IMG/VR virus record: IMGVR_UViG_3300020043_003758
Coordinates: 1 to 26,462 of that record
From: a virus
Taxonomy: Duplodnaviria > Caudoviricetes
Length of the DNA stretch: 26,462 nucleotides
Strand: one strand, 5' to 3'
The position numbers and the translations under genes were made by a program. Positions 4,701-13,463 of the stretch are shown piece after piece. Position 1 is the stretch's first letter. Each line of letters begins with the position of its first letter. The notes under the pieces were generated by a model, which was given only the letters and a program-made list of their open reading frames with translations, made no database searches and had not been told where the DNA came from.

Positions 4701-5011
4701 TCGGATCACTCGACTCAGCAATGGTGGAGGTCATCACACGCCTCTACCCAGATGAACCCAACCCAGTCGCACGGTTGCAGCAGCTTTGCCGCAACACGTT
4801 CGGCTCGGGGTCTGGACGTGAGCTACTGTCCATCCTCAACTACGCAGTCCCACCGATGGCACCGAGCGTGCGTGAAGGCACGGACAACGACCCTGCCGTG
4901 GTTGGTATGAGAGATGGTCGCCGGGAGGTCTCCGCATTCCTATTCCGATACTCGGGGAATCCCCCGGCAGCACCAGAACAACCCACCACAAAGACCAAAC
5001 GCAATGGCTAA
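4697..5011 (+). CDS. Bbp19-like small protein downstream of portal
   Basis: ATGA overlap with the portal stop. Pattern FGSGSGRELLSIL...RDGRREVSAFL matches the F..G+.VL..L...EG+R.V family found between portal and scaffold. Confidence 0.65.
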   Translation: MIGSLDSAMVEVITRLYPDEPNPVARLQQLCRNTFGSGSGRELLSILNYAVPPMAPSVREGTDNDPAVVGMRDGRREVSAFLFRYSGNPPAAPEQPTTKTKRNG

Positions 5012-5300
5012 GAAAGCAGCAAAGAAGGTCGCAGCCAAGAAGGTTGCGAGAACCCGCGTCACCGATGACGACCTCATCGGGGATGCACCCAAGAAACCAG
5101 CAACCAAGCAGGCGAAAGAACCGGAGACTCCGGCAGAGGTTGACCCCAACGCACGCATCGTGCGTGGAGTCGTCATCCCACCCTATCCACCCGAGCTTGC
5201 CACCATCCAGGATGGTGATAAGACCCCGGCAGTGAAGAAGTGGTTCAAGGACAACCACCCCGAGGCATACGATGCGCTCTACCAGAACACGGTAGGCTAA
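5004..5300 (+). CDS. Hypothetical protein with Lys/Ala-rich (histone H1-like) N-terminus, 98 aa
   Basis: ATG 5004 overlaps the previous gene end. MAKKAAKKVAAKKVAR followed by a small C-domain GDKTPAVKKWF..HPEAY. Confidence 0.7.
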   Translation: MAKKAAKKVAAKKVARTRVTDDDLIGDAPKKPATKQAKEPETPAEVDPNARIVRGVVIPPYPPELATIQDGDKTPAVKKWFKDNHPEAYDALYQNTVG

Positions 5301-5306
5301 CCCCCA

Positions 5307-5322
5307 AGCAACCCTAGACCGA
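5307..5322 (+). promoter_or_regulatory. Scaffold translation-initiation region; exact target of antisense element at 7924-7939
   Basis: AGCAACCCTAGACCGA, ending 7 nt before ATG 5330, is the perfect reverse complement of TCGGTCTAGGGTTGCT (7924-7939). Confidence 0.6.
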
Positions 5323-5329
5323 CAACAAC

Positions 5330-6217
5330 ATGAAACGATACAACCCAATCTCCCTCGCCCTTCTGCCGCTCATGTGGCATGACCAGTGGGAGCAGCAGAA
5401 CAAAGAAGGTGATGGCACAGGTGATCCACCACCTCCGAGCGATCCACCCCCACCCCTACTCGGTGAGGACCTATCCTTCACCCCCGGTTGGCAGGAAAAG
5501 CTGCCGGAGGAATACCGGCCCACCGCAGCCAACTTCAAGGACCTCCCATCCTTGATGAAGTCTCTGGTGGAGACCAAGCGGATGGCAAGCGGCAAGCTGG
5601 AAGGCTATGTCAAAGTCCCCGGCGAAAGCGCAACCCCCGAGGAGCTTGCGGCATACCGCAAGGCGCAAGGTGTGCCCGACTCCCCAGATGCCTATGATTT
5701 GAAAAAGCCTGATGGTGAACTCGGGAACTTCTACAATGAGGAGGAGGTCAAAGCGTTTGCTGCCAAGGCTGCTGAACTGGGTCTCACCAAACAGCAGGCA
5801 TCGGCACTTGCTGAATGGCGTTTGAACATCTCCAAGGACTACGACGACAAGGAACGCGAAGAGGGCAGAGCATTTCTTGCGCAGCGGGACAAGGTGTTCA
5901 CGGAGGCTTGGGGTGGCAAAAAGGAAGCAGAGTTGGTCGATGCACAGCGCATGTTGCTCACACTCGACCACTCCTTGAAACCCGAGCTGGTGAACTTCCT
6001 CGAACCCAAGCTGGTGGTGGCACTGGCTGCGTTTGCGAAAAAGCTCAACCCAGACGCGATGGTGGCGAAGGAGCAGTTCGAGAACAAGCTATCATCCACC
6101 TCCATGTCGAACGACATCGTGACCAACAAGAGCAATCCTGATTACGAGGCGTTTCACAACCCCCGCCACCCCAACCACGCTGCTGTGAAGCAGAAGGTGC
6201 TTGACGGGTTCAAGTGA
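5330..6217 (+). CDS. Capsid assembly scaffolding protein, 295 aa
   Basis: Between portal and capsid gene. Acidic/Pro-rich N-part, W...LPEE, GVPDSPDAY, A.ELGLTKQQA, EAWG, and C-terminal Y.....HP.H...V motif typical of these scaffolds. Confidence 0.8.
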   Translation: MKRYNPISLALLPLMWHDQWEQQNKEGDGTGDPPPPSDPPPPLLGEDLSFTPGWQEKLPEEYRPTAANFKDLPSLMKSLVETKRMASGKLEGYVKVPGESATPEELAAYRKAQGVPDSPDAYDLKKPDGELGNFYNEEEVKAFAAKAAELGLTKQQASALAEWRLNISKDYDDKEREEGRAFLAQRDKVFTEAWGGKKEAELVDAQRMLLTLDHSLKPELVNFLEPKLVVALAAFAKKLNPDAMVAKEQFENKLSSTSMSNDIVTNKSNPDYEAFHNPRHPNHAAVKQKVLDGFK

Positions 6218-6259
6218 TCTGGTAGCATTCGGGATGCCTCGTAGTGGGGGTATTTCGAT

Positions 6260-6272
6260 GTAGCTCATGGTG
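6260..6272 (+). ncRNA. Putative 3'-UTR antisense element complementary to the start of the collagen-like gene
   Basis: GTAGCTCATGGTG is the reverse complement of CACCATGAGCTAC (22535-22547, includes ATG 22539). It abuts the terminator stem. Function is inferred. Confidence 0.45.
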
Positions 6273-6274
6273 AG

Positions 6275-6310
6275 TTGCCCACCTCTTAACCGAGGTGGGC
6301 AATTTTTTTT
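6275..6310 (+). terminator. Rho-independent terminator after scaffold gene
   Basis: 11-bp perfect stem TTGCCCACCTC / GAGGTGGGCAA, 6-nt loop TTAACC, followed by T8. Confidence 0.9.
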
Positions 6311-6311
6311 G

Positions 6312-6339
6312 TTGCATTCTCCAGAATTGCCCTCACACT
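6312..6339 (+). promoter_or_regulatory. Possible sigma70-type promoter for the capsid transcript
   Basis: TTGCAT-N16-CACACT directly after the terminator T-tract (possible UP element). A promoter is expected here because a strong terminator precedes the capsid gene. Confidence 0.4.
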
Positions 6340-6356
6340 GGAATCTGACAGAGAAA

Positions 6357-6450
6357 GTTAGTGCAGGCCCGCAAGGATTCCCACAAGCACTAACCGGATC
6401 ACCCAGGACTGCATGACACCCGCAAAGCGGACTATGGCACGGCAGGACTA
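6357..6450 (+). promoter_or_regulatory. Structured 5' leader of major capsid mRNA
   Basis: Stem GTTAGTGC(6357-64)/GCACTAAC(6387-94). Second hairpin CCGC-AAA-GCGG (6420-30) inside CTGC/GCAG. CCCGCAA occurs twice and GGA(C/T) five times. Confidence 0.5.
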
Positions 6451-6484
6451 ACCCTCCTATCCAAATCCATACCATAATCGTGTC

Positions 6485-7393
6485 ATGTCTTTAACCATTC
6501 CTCAAAATTACATTCGGGCTTTCAGCGCAATCTGGGAGCACACCGTCCAGCAAGAAACCGCACTCCTCGCAGATCGCGTCACCATTGACGACTTCGAGGG
6601 CAAGGAAAAGGTCTATACCGACCTCGACCGAGTGCAGTTCGTCAAAAAGCGTGGTCGCCTCCAGAAGACCATCTCCCAAGAGGCTACTGCCCAAAAGCGG
6701 AAAATGAGTCGCCAGGACTTCTCCTGCCACATCATCTTTGACCGTGGTGACAACCAACTGCTCGGGATGCTCGGTGAGCCTACCTCGGAGATTCAGGTGG
6801 AAATGCGCTACGCCTTCCAACGCTCCATGGACGATGGTTTGATCGAAGCAGCTTCCGGCACCGTCTACGGTGGTGCGGACCCATATGTTACCCCAATCAC
6901 CCTGCCTAACTCGCAGAAGGTTGCGGTGAACTACGTCCCCTCCGGTTCTCCTGCCAACTCAGGTCTGACTCCTGACAAGCTCCAAGCTGCCATCAAGCGG
7001 TTTGAGGACAAGGAACTCAGCGTTAACAGTGAGGAGTTCGTGCTCGCCATCGGACCCAAGCAGAAGGAAGACCTCTTCCAGTATGTGAAGACTGCCCCAT
7101 CCAGTGCTTACGCCATGATGATCGGCAAATGGCTGAACAACCCCAACGAGAAACTGTTCGGGTTCACGGTGATTGTCTCCAACCGTCTTGCCCTCAACAC
7201 CAGCACAGATGTTCGCACCTGCCTTGCCTGGAGTCGCCGGGGCATCTACGCCGCACCGAGCAAGATGGAAGTGATGATCGACGTGCTGCCTGACCAAGAG
7301 CACGCTCGCCTCATCTCCAGCTACGGGCAGTGGGGCTTTATGCGCCGCTACGAGGAGAGGGTCCTTGAAATCTACTGCGACGAGTCCCCCTAA
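6485..7393 (+). CDS. Major capsid protein (BPP-1/T7-like type), 302 aa
   Basis: Follows the scaffold. N-terminal YIRAFS..WEHTVQQ..ALL, AFQRSMDD.LI.A, KLFGF.VIVSNRL, C-terminal G..R.EE.VLEI.C.E pattern of this capsid family. Confidence 0.88.
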   Translation: MSLTIPQNYIRAFSAIWEHTVQQETALLADRVTIDDFEGKEKVYTDLDRVQFVKKRGRLQKTISQEATAQKRKMSRQDFSCHIIFDRGDNQLLGMLGEPTSEIQVEMRYAFQRSMDDGLIEAASGTVYGGADPYVTPITLPNSQKVAVNYVPSGSPANSGLTPDKLQAAIKRFEDKELSVNSEEFVLAIGPKQKEDLFQYVKTAPSSAYAMMIGKWLNNPNEKLFGFTVIVSNRLALNTSTDVRTCLAWSRRGIYAAPSKMEVMIDVLPDQEHARLISSYGQWGFMRRYEERVLEIYCDESP

Positions 7394-7401
7394 CCCCTAA
7401 C

Positions 7402-7430
7402 TGCCCCGCCCAGTAACCCTGTGCGGGGCA
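7402..7430 (+). promoter_or_regulatory. Intergenic stem-loop without U-tract (mRNA stability/processing element)
   Basis: TGCCCCGC-C-CAG-TAACC-CTG-T-GCGGGGCA: 8+3 bp hairpin, 8 nt after the capsid stop. Confidence 0.6.
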
Positions 7431-7458
7431 AACCTTAACCCCTCAACTCCTCAGCATT

Positions 7459-7917
7459 ATGGCCTCAATCAAATCTCCAATCTTCACGAACCAGCAGAAC
7501 CGGGACATCTCCCTCCACGCAGATCAGTCTGTGCGGGAAATCGTGGGTGGTCTCAAAGTGGTCCGCATTCCTTACACTGTCCTCGGCACTGAGACGGGCA
7601 CCGACACCATTGAACTGTGCTACCCACAGATCGAAGGGGTCCTCATCCCTGAAATCTCCCGTGTGTCGAACTCAGGTGCAGGTGATGTGGATGTTGATCT
7701 CACCATCCGCAAAGTGAACGCTGCTGGCACTGCCACTGCGCTAACTGCTGCGGCTGCGGTGGACAACGACTCGGTTGCCTTCGCCCGTCCATCCGGCAAT
7801 GTGGTTCCCGCCATTGAAAAAGGCGATTACCTGCAAGCACTCACGGCTGTCACGGCAATGACTGCCGGGGACATCCTGGTGTTTGAACTGGTGTTCGCCG
7901 TGTTCAAAAACGACTAA
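7459..7917 (+). CDS. Probable capsid decoration/cement protein, 152 aa
   Basis: Small beta-rich Ala/Thr/Val protein immediately after the capsid gene and before the terminator, so likely co-expressed at high level. Confidence 0.6.
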   Translation: MASIKSPIFTNQQNRDISLHADQSVREIVGGLKVVRIPYTVLGTETGTDTIELCYPQIEGVLIPEISRVSNSGAGDVDVDLTIRKVNAAGTATALTAAAAVDNDSVAFARPSGNVVPAIEKGDYLQALTAVTAMTAGDILVFELVFAVFKND

Positions 7918-7923
7918 GCCCTT

Positions 7924-7939
7924 TCGGTCTAGGGTTGCT
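7924..7939 (+). ncRNA. Putative 3'-UTR antisense element complementary to scaffold translation-initiation region
   Basis: 16/16 reverse complement of 5307-5322. Partly displayed in the loop (TTCGGTCT) of hairpin AGCCCT/AGGGTT (7917-7936), 4 nt before the terminator stem. Confidence 0.6.
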
Positions 7940-7943
7940 CTGA

Positions 7944-7983
7944 GGGGGCAGAACTGCGGTTGCGGTTCTGCCCCTTTTCCTTT
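7944..7983 (+). terminator. Rho-independent terminator after capsid/decoration genes
   Basis: 14-bp stem GGGGGCAGAACTGC / GCGGTTCTGCCCCT (two G-U pairs), loop GGTT, followed by TTTCCTTT. Confidence 0.8.
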
Positions 7984-7995
7984 ACACTCATCGCC

Positions 7996-8793
7996 ATGAC
8001 TCAACTCGAACTCTGCAACCTTGCCCTCGACAAGTTGGGGGAACCCCCCATCTCTGCCCCCAACGCAGCAATGCCAGCAGCGCAGGCTTGCACTCGACTT
8101 TACCAACCAACCCTCGACACCTTGGTGCGGAAGTATCGGTGGAACTTCGCCCGCAAGTCCGTGCGTCTCAAAGCCGTGTTTGAGGAAATGGACGATCTGG
8201 TGGACAGTGGGGTTGCCGACCTCATTCAAGTGGAGGGTAACAACCATGGGCTGCAAACTGGGGATCGGGTGGTGTTGAAGGGCACAGGGGCAGATGGCAG
8301 CTACATCATCACCCGCATCGACTCGCATAACTTCACCTGCGACGACTCGAAGTTCACCTCGCTGCTCACCGTGGGCAGCTATCATGTCTCTCCACCCCAC
8401 ACATGGGAATATAAGATCGCACTGCCGGATGACTGCCTCGCCCTGCGCACGGTGGAGGGGTATGAGGTTGGTCGCCCACACCAGTTCTTTGTCCTCGAAG
8501 GGCAGAACATTTTCTGCAATCTGGAGGAGGTCGATGTCACCTACACGCAGAAGCAGACGGGTGGCACAGATGAGGCTAACTTCGACACTATATTCACGAA
8601 CCTGTTTTCGTGCATGTTGGCAGCAGAGCTTGCCATGCCGATCACGGGGGCGATGTCTCGCCGGGGGGATATGCAGGCACTCTACCAAGAGGAATTGAAC
8701 TCTGCGCTCATGTCCAATGTGTTTGAGCACCGTGACAACCTGATTGACCGAACCCAGGGTCCTACCTCCGCCATGACCCGCCAATACGCCTGA
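7996..8793 (+). CDS. Tail tubular protein A / adaptor (T7 gp11-like) with ~70-aa inserted domain
   Basis: ATG 7996 preferred because 7960 lies inside the terminator. ELCNLALDKLGEPPI, WNFARK...L, WEY..ALPDDCL, FDTIF.......LAAELA.PITG motifs. Confidence 0.85.
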   Translation: MTQLELCNLALDKLGEPPISAPNAAMPAAQACTRLYQPTLDTLVRKYRWNFARKSVRLKAVFEEMDDLVDSGVADLIQVEGNNHGLQTGDRVVLKGTGADGSYIITRIDSHNFTCDDSKFTSLLTVGSYHVSPPHTWEYKIALPDDCLALRTVEGYEVGRPHQFFVLEGQNIFCNLEEVDVTYTQKQTGGTDEANFDTIFTNLFSCMLAAELAMPITGAMSRRGDMQALYQEELNSALMSNVFEHRDNLIDRTQGPTSAMTRQYA

Positions 8794-12161: not shown

Positions 12162-12633
12162 GCGGGAGAATGATCGGGACTTGGTGCTGAAGGGCTTGCA
12201 GGCTCTTGGCATCTCCGAGGAGCATGTGCGTGAGCACGGCATCATCAATGCTGCGGAGTTCGCCCTTGCCCAGATGGACCAACTTGAGAACTACGAGGTG
12301 GAGCACTATGCCCTCCCCGGCTTCTTGGTGCGCCAAGCCCTGTTGCGGGCACCCAGCATCATCACCACTGAGCGGCACAAGCACTGGCACCCATTCGTCA
12401 TTTCCTACGGCAACGTGAGCGTGTTCAACGAACTCGACGGCACCGTGAAGCACATCCAGGCTATCGACGCACCGGGGGGTCACTTCACCTCCATCACCGA
12501 GCCGGGGACACGCCGTTTAATTTTCGTGCGTGAGGACACGTTATGGACTACCTTCCATCGGTGTGACCACGCAGACCCAAACGAGATGGTGCGTGAGAAC
12601 ATCATCCCCAACGACAACCCTCTTCTCCAATGA
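12145..12633 (+). CDS. Cupin-like hypothetical protein at the T7 gp13 position, 162 aa
   Basis: HYALPG..VR, RHKHWHPFVISYGNVSV, EPGTRR...EDTLWTTFH: His-rich double-stranded beta-helix-like pattern. Confidence 0.55.
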   Translation: MSTLVERENDRDLVLKGLQALGISEEHVREHGIINAAEFALAQMDQLENYEVEHYALPGFLVRQALLRAPSIITTERHKHWHPFVISYGNVSVFNELDGTVKHIQAIDAPGGHFTSITEPGTRRLIFVREDTLWTTFHRCDHADPNEMVRENIIPNDNPLLQ

Positions 12634-13463
12634 TTGAACATCTCCTCCATCTGCCTTTGGGCACCATGTTCTTCACATACACGTTCATGGCAGCAACCGT
12701 GGTGTCTGGTGTGGTGGGCGCAGTCGCCACGTATCGCCAGGGCAAAGAGGCACAGCGGGTGTCTGAACTGAATGCAGACCTCGCCAACCAAGAGGCACGG
12801 CAGCAGCTAGCCATTGGTCGGATGCAGGAGCAAATCTCCATGCAGCAGGCAGCAGCAGAGCGGTCTGCGATGATGGCTGAAGCAGCAGCGGCAAATGCCA
12901 ATGCGTCTGCCATCGACCAAGAGACACTGGCAAATGAGGCACGCAGCCGGGAGGAGCAGCGCAGGGCACGGGAGGAGGCACGGCAGCGATTGGCTGAGAC
13001 CGGGGGCATCTTCGCCGGAGCAGGCGTGGTGGGCACAACCGGGACACCCCTCGCAGTGCTGGCTGAGTCTGCCATGCTGGAGGAGGCGAACGTCATCGAC
13101 CAGCAGTATCTCACCAACGTGGAGAGCACCAAGTCCCGATGGGAAGCTGGGGTTGAGCGGGCAAACGCAGGACGGATCGCTGGAGCAGCGAACATGCAGT
13201 ATGCAATTTCCAAGAATGCGGCAAAGGTTTCTGGTGTGGCAGCGCAGATCGGTGCCCGTAACCGGATGACCCAAGCGGACATTGAACGGAGCGCAGGACG
13301 GGCAGCACGCAGGCAAGCCAATCTTGCAGCAGTGGGGCAGGTCATCGGTTCTGTTGGTACCGCAGCAGGGTCTTACTCCATGGGTGCCTCCCGTGCATCC
13401 ACCTCGGGCAGCTATCGCCCAAAAACTAGAAACCCAAGTGCCCCAAAAGACTACTTTTATTGA
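12630..13463 (+). CDS. Internal virion/ejection protein (T7 gp14-like), 277 aa
   Basis: Hydrophobic Gly/Ala N-terminus, Ala/Gln coiled coil, FAGAGVVGTTGTPL.VL motif, position after the nozzle, ATGA overlap. Confidence 0.7.
   Translation: MIEHLLHLPLGTMFFTYTFMAATVVSGVVGAVATYRQGKEAQRVSELNADLANQEARQQLAIGRMQEQISMQQAAAERSAMMAEAAAANANASAIDQETLANEARSREEQRRAREEARQRLAETGGIFAGAGVVGTTGTPLAVLAESAMLEEANVIDQQYLTNVESTKSRWEAGVERANAGRIAGAANMQYAISKNAAKVSGVAAQIGARNRMTQADIERSAGRAARRQANLAAVGQVIGSVGTAAGSYSMGASRASTSGSYRPKTRNPSAPKDYFY

What the first reader, a model, noticed from the sequence alone, without database searches (positions are those of the whole stretch)
7917..7983. Capsid-operon 3'-UTR is a perfect 16-nt antisense to the scaffold ribosome-loading region
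Seen: TCGGTCTAGGGTTGCT (7924-7939) is the reverse complement of AGCAACCCTAGACCGA (5307-5322; -23 to -8 of ATG 5330). Pairing can extend with bulges via TGAGGGG to CCCCCA (5301-5306), invading the terminator's 5' arm. Both partners are in tiny intergenic gaps. The element is presented in a hairpin loop beginning TTCG (a YUNR U-turn, as in kissing antisense RNAs). A terminator at 6275-6310 separates the two loci, so pairing is in trans or on read-through RNA. Inference: capsid mRNA level feeds back on scaffold translation, and/or pairing disrupts the terminator to allow tail-gene read-through. Rough chance expectation for any 16-mer inverted match in the window is ~0.1, and far lower for two intergenic sites.
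Basis: partly seen in the sequence, partly recalled or inferred. Interest (0 to 1): 0.85.

Follow-up and report, generated by a model that had tools for sequence, protein, structure and literature searches.

The report
Capsid mRNA tail targets scaffold start
In this uncultured freshwater phage the tail end of the capsid genes is an exact 16-base mirror of the translation start region of the likely scaffold gene, and several related phages keep such a match with different letters, so the capsid message likely pairs with the scaffold message and turns its translation down, although no RNA has been observed.

Summary
Confirmed. 7924-7939 is the exact reverse complement of 5307-5322. One such match is weak alone (0.11-0.18 expected per window), but relatives settle it.

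Close phages show a compensatory insertion on both sides. Distant phages pair the two regions with unrelated sequences. Across 37 representatives without this window, each phage's post-cement spacer fits its own scaffold start better than others' (p 2e-4 to 6e-4); the capsid, cement and tail starts show nothing.

The target lies between -30 and +27 of the scaffold ATG and often covers it. A terminator-like hairpin (30 of 38) and a promoter-like -35 box (26 of 38) separate the partners. Best reading: the capsid-operon 3' end likely represses scaffold initiation in trans (0.6).

Clear pairing is seen in only 4-6 of 38 representatives, mostly where the scaffold has its own leader. No RNA data exist. 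Known analogues are bacterial (hly-prsA2, icaR); eight paper searches found no phage case. This scan noted a similar layout before on other DNA (crAss-like phages; unchecked notes).

The parts
5004..5300 (+). Small gene upstream of the scaffold gene; its stop leaves a 29-nt untranslated leader
   Evidence: ORF ending at 5300; homologous C-terminus found upstream of the scaffold gene in 44 loci by an iterated HMM; no Pfam family
5301..5306 (+). Possible extension of the duplex towards the base of the terminator arm (this clade only)
   Evidence: Duplex prediction; formed in the cofold only for L001
5307..5322 (+). Target site, -23 to -8 of the scaffold ATG, in an unstructured leader without a Shine-Dalgarno-like motif
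   Evidence: opening cost 2.3 kcal/mol; unchanged in the dominant strains of runs X3, X6, X9, X10 while 5321-5328 varies
5330..6217 (+). Likely capsid scaffolding protein, 295 aa (inferred)
   Evidence: Lies between portal and capsid genes; model almost all alpha-helical with a 59-residue helix and C-terminal helix-loop-helix, pTM 0.42; no named structural match at E<=0.001; PHROG 3742 (unknown) and weak PHROG 458 labelled protease
6272..6310 (+). Predicted intrinsic terminator closing the portal-scaffold unit
   Evidence: similar hairpin plus T run in 30 of 38 representatives, 3 of 38 in single shuffles
6312..6339 (+). Promoter-like site for the capsid operon (TTGCAT, 16 nt, weak -10); inferred
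   Evidence: -35-like hexamer 100-200 nt before the capsid start in 26 of 38 representatives, 9.6 expected; not listed by the consensus scan
6485..7393 (+). Major capsid protein, HTVC010P-related
   Evidence: PF19821, PHROG 3437, 28% identity to HTVC010P capsid
7459..7917 (+). Predicted cement (decoration) protein, last gene of the capsid unit
   Evidence: Beta-sandwich model, pLDDT 87; best Foldseek hits a 140-residue chain of the cyanophage Pam1 capsid (E 1.6e-4) and KHP40 cement protein (E 5.2e-4)
7917..7936 (+). Weak hairpin that exposes the 5' half of the antisense element in an 8-nt loop
7924..7939 (+). Antisense element, 6 nt after the cement stop codon
   Evidence: best of 22 gene starts tested in the window, -31.8 against next -20.3 kcal/mol
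7942..7985 (+). Predicted terminator hairpin of the capsid unit with an interrupted U tail
   Evidence: paired changes in the stem among relatives; not listed by the scan

Best explanation
The stretch between the cement stop codon and the capsid-operon terminator is complementary to the start region of the likely scaffold gene, and it likely acts as a trans antisense arm that pairs with the scaffold mRNA and would block ribosome loading. Shown: the complementarity, its co-variation, its specificity for the scaffold start and its position between -30 and +27 of the ATG. Predicted: a terminator and an internal promoter put the partners on different transcripts; the loop seeds pairing; net binding in the cofold is about -20 to -23 kcal/mol. 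Inferred: as capsid-operon RNA (whole mRNA or a 3' fragment) builds up, scaffold synthesis is throttled, which would set the scaffold-to-capsid ratio. This is the job that P22 gives to its scaffold protein. It appears mainly where the scaffold gene has its own leader and is not coupled to the upstream stop.
For: Close relatives: L002 gained one C in the arm and one G in the leader; L003 has the same extra pair; L001 keeps 14 bp. Run X3 holds both the extra-C arm and an extra-G leader, not physically linked. Distant phages pair with unrelated letters: L080 12 bp perfect, L051 11 bp perfect at +15, L010 17 pairs over the ATG, L115 20 pairs around a bulged ATG, L004 15 pairs, L139 13 bp. Permutation test on 37 representatives (<80% capsid identity, window left out, no spacer filter): energy p 6e-4, Watson-Crick run p 2e-4; capsid, cement and tail-A starts p>0.7. 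Four adjacent 25-nt windows from -30 to +24 carry signal. The scaffold start ranks 1 of 36 gene starts in L002's record, 1 of 42 in L003's and 2 of 53 in L115's. The excess is larger on the sense strand than on the antisense strand (p 0.014-0.028). Top rank in 5 of 9 phages with a leader of 15 nt or more against 1 of 28 without (p 0.0016).
Against: No RNA evidence of any kind. The own scaffold start is the single best partner in only 4 (window -30..+18; binomial p 0.073 without this window) or 6 (window -30..+27, widened after seeing L051; p 0.0027) of 38 representatives. The 16 representatives with spacers under 19 nt show nothing. L082 and L159 have long GU-rich spacers that do not fit their scaffold start. 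L003 carries two mismatches. Most helices are nearly pure Watson-Crick, and raw antisense-strand energies are lower than sense in 17 of 21 hand-picked pairs, so the strand test is modest. An unexplained signal lies at -90..-66 (p 0.001, one of 41 windows). The sign of the effect is inferred from position only. The scaffold label rests on gene order and helical shape.
Confidence: 0.6

Rival explanations
1. The RNAs pair, but the coupling is positive: the arm stabilises the scaffold mRNA, brings the two messages together for co-assembly, or hands ribosomes that stop at the cement codon to the scaffold ATG, which lies at the same end of the helix.
For: hly-prsA2 is a substrate-mRNA 3' UTR that stabilises its chaperone's mRNA (PMC8722363). 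In the window the stop is 6 nt and the ATG 7 nt from the same helix end. The element occurs mostly where coupling to the upstream gene is absent.
Against: In L004, L009, L010, L018, L025, L051, L115 and L139 the predicted helix covers the ATG or the first codons, which is hard to reconcile with initiation. The leader has no inhibitory fold to open. The target is intercistronic, not at a known 5' end.
Confidence: 0.17
2. Pairing happens in cis on read-through RNA and marks a processing or decay site (RNase III type) that excises or destabilises the scaffold-capsid-cement message.
For: 16 bp, up to 22 with bulges, in this clade; 8 of 38 representatives, among them L137, lack a called terminator between the partners; precedents icaR and yabJ-spoVG (abstracts).
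Against: Terminator-like hairpin between the partners in 30 of 38; in the distant phages the longest unbroken helices are only 8-13 bp.
Confidence: 0.09
3. The scaffold leader acts on the capsid-operon terminator and raises read-through into the tail genes.
For: The leader can extend 4-6 pairs into the base of the terminator arm in this clade; realised in the L001 cofold.
Against: Terminator intact in the cofold of the window and 15 of 17 relatives; opening cost 25 kcal/mol; in L080, L115 and L139 the helix ends 10 or more nt before the stem.
Confidence: 0.07
4. A DNA-level inverted repeat: recombination or inversion site, protein operator, or a product of template switching.
For: Few G.U pairs; the leader 5298-5327 is duplicated around an inserted gene in some strains, so it does take part in recombination.
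Against: No shared sequence between clades; bulged and multipartite helices; the target moves with the ribosome footprint; sense-strand excess larger; no strand-changing joints listed in the contigs of 4 runs (contigs drop rare forms).
Confidence: 0.05
5. Chance plus composition: AC-rich leaders meet GU-rich spacers.
For: 0.11-0.18 expected per window and a second 16-mer present; many spacers share a GGTTG-like core.
Against: The cognate-versus-non-cognate test removes row and column composition and stays significant without this window; equally AC-rich capsid and cement leaders show nothing.
Confidence: 0.02

Closest known systems
Listeria hly 3' UTR - prsA2 5' UTR mRNA-mRNA pairing (PMC8722363; abstract and section 12 read)
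   Same: 3' UTR of a substrate's mRNA pairs in trans with the 5' region of its chaperone's mRNA; Hfq not needed there
   Different: There it protects the 5' end from RNase J1 and raises output; here the target is an intercistronic start region, often over the ATG, so repression is predicted; phage, assembly genes
S. aureus icaR 5'-3' UTR pairing (PMC3868564; abstract read)
   Same: A 3' UTR motif pairs with a ribosome-loading region and blocks initiation
   Different: Same mRNA and an anti-Shine-Dalgarno motif; here a different, likely separately transcribed gene and no Shine-Dalgarno
S. aureus yabJ-spoVG cis RNA duplex (10.64898/2026.09.18.752551; abstract read)
   Same: Long-range pairing sets gene-specific output within a gene cluster
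   Different: A 5' UTR acts on a downstream intercistronic region in one transcript through RNase III
P22 scaffolding-protein translational autoregulation (one passage in 10.1101/2022.12.13.520362; titles of Casjens and Adams 1985 and Wyckoff and Casjens 1985 seen in the reference list of PMC5529062; details recalled)
   Same: Post-transcriptional damping of scaffold synthesis tied to capsid assembly
   Different: The effector there is the scaffold protein; here it would be capsid-operon RNA
3' UTR-derived base-pairing sRNAs (CpxQ type recalled; GlnZ-type PMC9731577 and CisR PMC13250501 seen in search listings only)
   Same: Short seed plus terminator at an mRNA 3' end, aimed at a translation start region
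   Different: No evidence here for release as a separate RNA or for Hfq; phage-on-phage target; perfect 11-16 bp helices in some members

Membership tests
3' UTR-derived base-pairing sRNA | Seed upstream of an intrinsic terminator at an mRNA 3' end | tested here: met
   Predicted hairpin and tail; tail interrupted and not listed
3' UTR-derived base-pairing sRNA | Conserved complementarity to a target's translation start region | tested here: met
3' UTR-derived base-pairing sRNA | Exists as a separate short RNA (processing or internal promoter) | not testable with these tools
   No RNA holder listed
3' UTR-derived base-pairing sRNA | Chaperone (Hfq/ProQ) use and measured regulation | not testable with these tools
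   Needs experiments; host not established
hly-prsA2-type mRNA-mRNA coupling | Partners on different transcripts that encode a substrate and its chaperone | tested here: inconclusive
   Terminator-like 30 of 38, -35-like 26 of 38; scaffold identity inferred
hly-prsA2-type mRNA-mRNA coupling | Binding at the target's 5' end that shields it from exonuclease | tested here: inconclusive
   Target is intercistronic and often over the ATG; RNA ends unknown
icaR-type 5'-3' UTR pairing | [quoted passage not shown] | tested here: not met
   Own capsid and cement starts show no excess
icaR-type 5'-3' UTR pairing | Anti-Shine-Dalgarno motif | tested here: not met
   No Shine-Dalgarno-like motif in the leader; arms share no fixed sequence
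Kissing antisense RNAs (CopA / RNA I type, features recalled) | YUNR U-turn in the recognition loop | tested here: not met
   4 of 13 spacers (W, L001, L018, L127)
Kissing antisense RNAs (CopA / RNA I type, features recalled) | Encoded opposite the target, fully complementary | tested here: not met
   Encoded 2.6 kb away on the same strand; 8-20 pairs
Invertible DNA segment (features recalled) | Both orientations present; conserved recombinase site | tested here: not met
   No strand-changing joint listed in contigs of 4 runs (rare forms can be lost); site sequence not conserved
Any Rfam family | Covariance-model match | tested here: not met
   4900-8300 gave one match at E 0.58, elsewhere and below the cut-off
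P22-type scaffold autoregulation | Free scaffold protein represses its own mRNA | not testable with these tools
   Needs experiments; could coexist

The most novel reading that the evidence does not exclude
Tailed phages have repeatedly evolved an RNA governor of capsid assembly. The capsid mRNA's own 3' end binds the scaffold start, so transcript abundance sets scaffold supply with no protein regulator. Because the helix begins a few bases after the cement stop codon, terminating ribosomes could strip it, so that scaffold output would report whether capsid message is being translated. It appears on scattered branches of this family with unrelated sequences, and unchecked scan notes point to the same layout in crAss-like phages.
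Probability: 0.3. Interest if true: 0.85.

Novelty: new variant of a known kind. Interest (0 to 1): 0.7.

Why it matters
How phages set the scaffold-to-capsid ratio is known mainly from P22, where the protein represses itself (recalled; passage). An mRNA-mRNA feedback between two structural-gene transcripts would be a second, protein-free solution. It would be a case of phage post-transcriptional control of virion stoichiometry that the searches run here did not find in print. It is short, has natural compensatory variants, and can be tested with reporters and toeprints without culturing the phage.

Tried and rejected
No RNA holder was listed for 5000-8300; this says nothing about expression. 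Rfam gave no match. Two scans of species genomes found no relative, so the host is not established. The nearest named capsid relative is from Verrucomicrobium sp. BvORR106 at 47%, a hint only; locus L017 has no scaffold gene beside its capsid gene. The metagenome scan gave three short loci, none with both sites. Sequence and fold searches did not name the scaffold. A shared multi-gene target, suggested by earlier scan notes, was not found: next-best start -20.3 against -31.8 in the window, and one match per strand in the records of L002 and L003. Antitermination and YUNR were rejected as general features. The second 16-mer was meant as a chance control but kept 16 pairs in L110, so it was not used as one. 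The genome-wide script left L051's scaffold gene out and stopped; its own value (-21.6) is below the best other start listed (-18.9). Dropped before counting: duplicate loci, loci lacking the scaffold start or the cement stop, and L105 (mis-parsed); 66 loci remained and gave 38 representatives. The 19-nt spacer filter and the +18 and +27 window limits were chosen after looking at sequences, so unfiltered results are given too. Start codons were picked by me, and the upstream gap was entered by hand for 22 loci. Paper searches listed no phage capsid-UTR/scaffold pairing; the library lacks most subscription papers, and no supplements were read.

Full report
Observation. 7924-7939 is the exact reverse complement of 5307-5322. 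Simulated windows give 0.11-0.18 such 16-mers each, and the window has a second one in coding sequence. The match alone is therefore only suggestive; what makes it unusual is that both arms fall in short intergenic gaps.

Context. The window is part of a podophage: terminase, portal, two small genes, a 295-aa gene, major capsid protein, a 152-aa gene, then tail tube genes. The capsid is distantly related to HTVC010P. The 152-aa protein folds like a cement protein. The 295-aa protein is a likely scaffold by position and helical shape, with no named match. Related sequence occurs in lake-water runs. The host is not established. One arm lies at -23 to -8 of the scaffold ATG in an open leader. The other lies 6 nt after the cement stop, in a weak hairpin in front of a strong one.

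Close relatives. Three close contigs have both sites. L001 keeps 14 bp. L002 has one more C in the arm and one more G in the leader, plus a one-base bulge. L003 has that extra pair, one G.U and two mismatches. Run X3 contains the extra-C arm and, in a minor strain, the extra-G leader; the two are not linked on one contig. In the dominant strains of four runs the target is unchanged while the bases just after it vary.

Distant relatives. I collected loci through capsid, portal and tail alignments, kept 66 with both regions and reduced them to 38 representatives under 80% capsid identity. For each I paired the spacer between cement stop and terminator with every phage's scaffold start, removed row and column means, and permuted. 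The first test (-35..+3, 19 representatives with spacers of 19 nt or more, window left out) gave p 1e-4 for the longest Watson-Crick run and 4e-3 for energy; four control regions gave p>0.28. Without the spacer filter (37 representatives, -30..+18) p was 2e-4 and 6e-4; capsid, cement and tail-A starts gave p>0.7. A sliding profile shows signal in four adjacent windows from -30 to +24 and one unexplained window at -90..-66, of 41 tested. Examples with unrelated letters: L080 12 bp perfect, L051 11 bp perfect in the first codons, L010 17 pairs across the ATG, L115 20 pairs in three helices with the ATG bulged out, L139 13 bp.

Limits. The own start is the single best partner in 4 of 38 (-30..+18) or 6 of 38 (-30..+27, widened after seeing L051) representatives. 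The 16 with short spacers show nothing. L082 and L159 have long spacers that do not fit. The six best cases need at least four changes on the capsid tree, so the trait is scattered: repeated gain, or loss with sequence turnover. It goes with an uncoupled scaffold start: 5 of 9 with a leader of 15 nt or more against 1 of 28 without (p 0.0016; L018 left out, 22 gaps entered by hand).

Specificity. The scaffold start is the best of 22 starts tested in the window, 1 of 36 and 1 of 42 in the records of L002 and L003, and 2 of 53 in that of L115. Some non-start windows score as well in L003 and L115, so ranking by energy alone is not decisive there.

RNA or DNA. The excess over non-cognate pairs is larger for the sense strands than for the antisense strands (p 0.014-0.028), although raw antisense energies are often lower and G.U pairs are few. 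Bulged, multipartite helices without shared sequence, which stay within the ribosome footprint, suit RNA. Contigs of four runs list no strand-changing joint.

Mechanism. A terminator-like hairpin (30 of 38) and a -35-like hexamer (26 of 38, 9.6 expected) lie between scaffold and capsid genes, so the arm likely sits on a separate, abundant transcript. Opening the arm costs 8.6 and the target 2.3 kcal/mol against a -31.8 duplex, and the cofold leaves the terminator intact in the window and 15 of 17 relatives. Pairing over the ATG in eight relatives points to blocked initiation; this step rests on general knowledge of sRNA action, not on a test. I put trans repression of scaffold translation at 0.6, positive coupling at 0.17, cis processing at 0.09, antitermination at 0.07, a DNA site at 0.05 and chance at 0.02.

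Known systems. It works like hly-prsA2 in layout (PMC8722363, abstract and section 12) and like icaR in predicted effect (PMC3868564, abstract). It fails icaR's same-gene test and the kissing-loop tests. yabJ-spoVG is a cis precedent (abstract). P22 solves the same problem with its scaffold protein (one passage; reference titles; the rest recalled). A 2025 review of phage sRNAs has no occurrence of capsid or scaffold in its main text (PMC12197685, passages). Some Verrucomicrobia are listed as poor in Shine-Dalgarno pairing (PMC10783764, passages), which would fit these leaders if the host hint holds. Eight searches listed no phage example. Earlier scan notes describe similar anti-leader arms in crAss-like phages; they are unchecked and not counted as support. 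Look-ups by place and by sequence found nothing on this family.

Verdict. A real, co-varying feature and a new variant of 3' UTR-to-start-site pairing, applied to phage capsid assembly. Function is untested. Interest 0.7.

Noticed in passing
window 6485 (capsid start); P0001-P0011, P0013, P0014, P0017, P0018, P0020; L001-L004: Most close capsid relatives carry a ~50-residue hydrophobic N-terminal extension (350-359 aa) that the window's 302-aa capsid lacks at the same leader; run X3 shows ~150 extra bases there. It looks like an optional membrane or signal-type leader on a major capsid protein.
   Followed up: no
window 5298-5327; runs X3, X6, X10: Some strains carry an extra ~350-nt stretch between the small gene and the scaffold gene, flanked by a direct duplication of the scaffold leader; in X10 both copies keep the target. 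Its end resembles the ORF upstream of the scaffold gene in L119.
   Followed up: partly
window 12173-12188 and 13125-13140: Second exact inverted 16-mer, both arms in coding sequence. L110 keeps 16 pairs through one compensatory synonymous change and one G.U; L111 keeps part; the first gene is absent in L112; no equivalent was found in L113. Unresolved.
   Followed up: partly
L003 leader and 3' arm: CTAG became CCAG on the same strand in both copies, costing two pairs; possibly avoidance of a restriction or repair site.
   Followed up: no
window 6345-6484 and the same region in relatives: The ~140-nt capsid leader repeats CCC..GGA-type small hairpin motifs across the family; no Rfam match.
   Followed up: no
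L024, L028, L035, L037, L038, L046, L056, L058, L063 after the capsid-unit terminator; L052 before the scaffold gene: A tRNA-like stretch with a T-arm-type motif sits between the terminator and tail gene A in phages with short spacers (seen by eye; not scanned).
   Followed up: no
L082 4744-4786, L159 4778-4826: Long GU-rich spacers with no fit to the scaffold start; L159's best nearby helix is 13 bp at -116. Target unknown.
   Followed up: partly
window 7398-7430: A hairpin lies between capsid and cement genes (z -3.1 for 7380-7470), and similar hairpins follow the capsid stop in many relatives.
   Followed up: no
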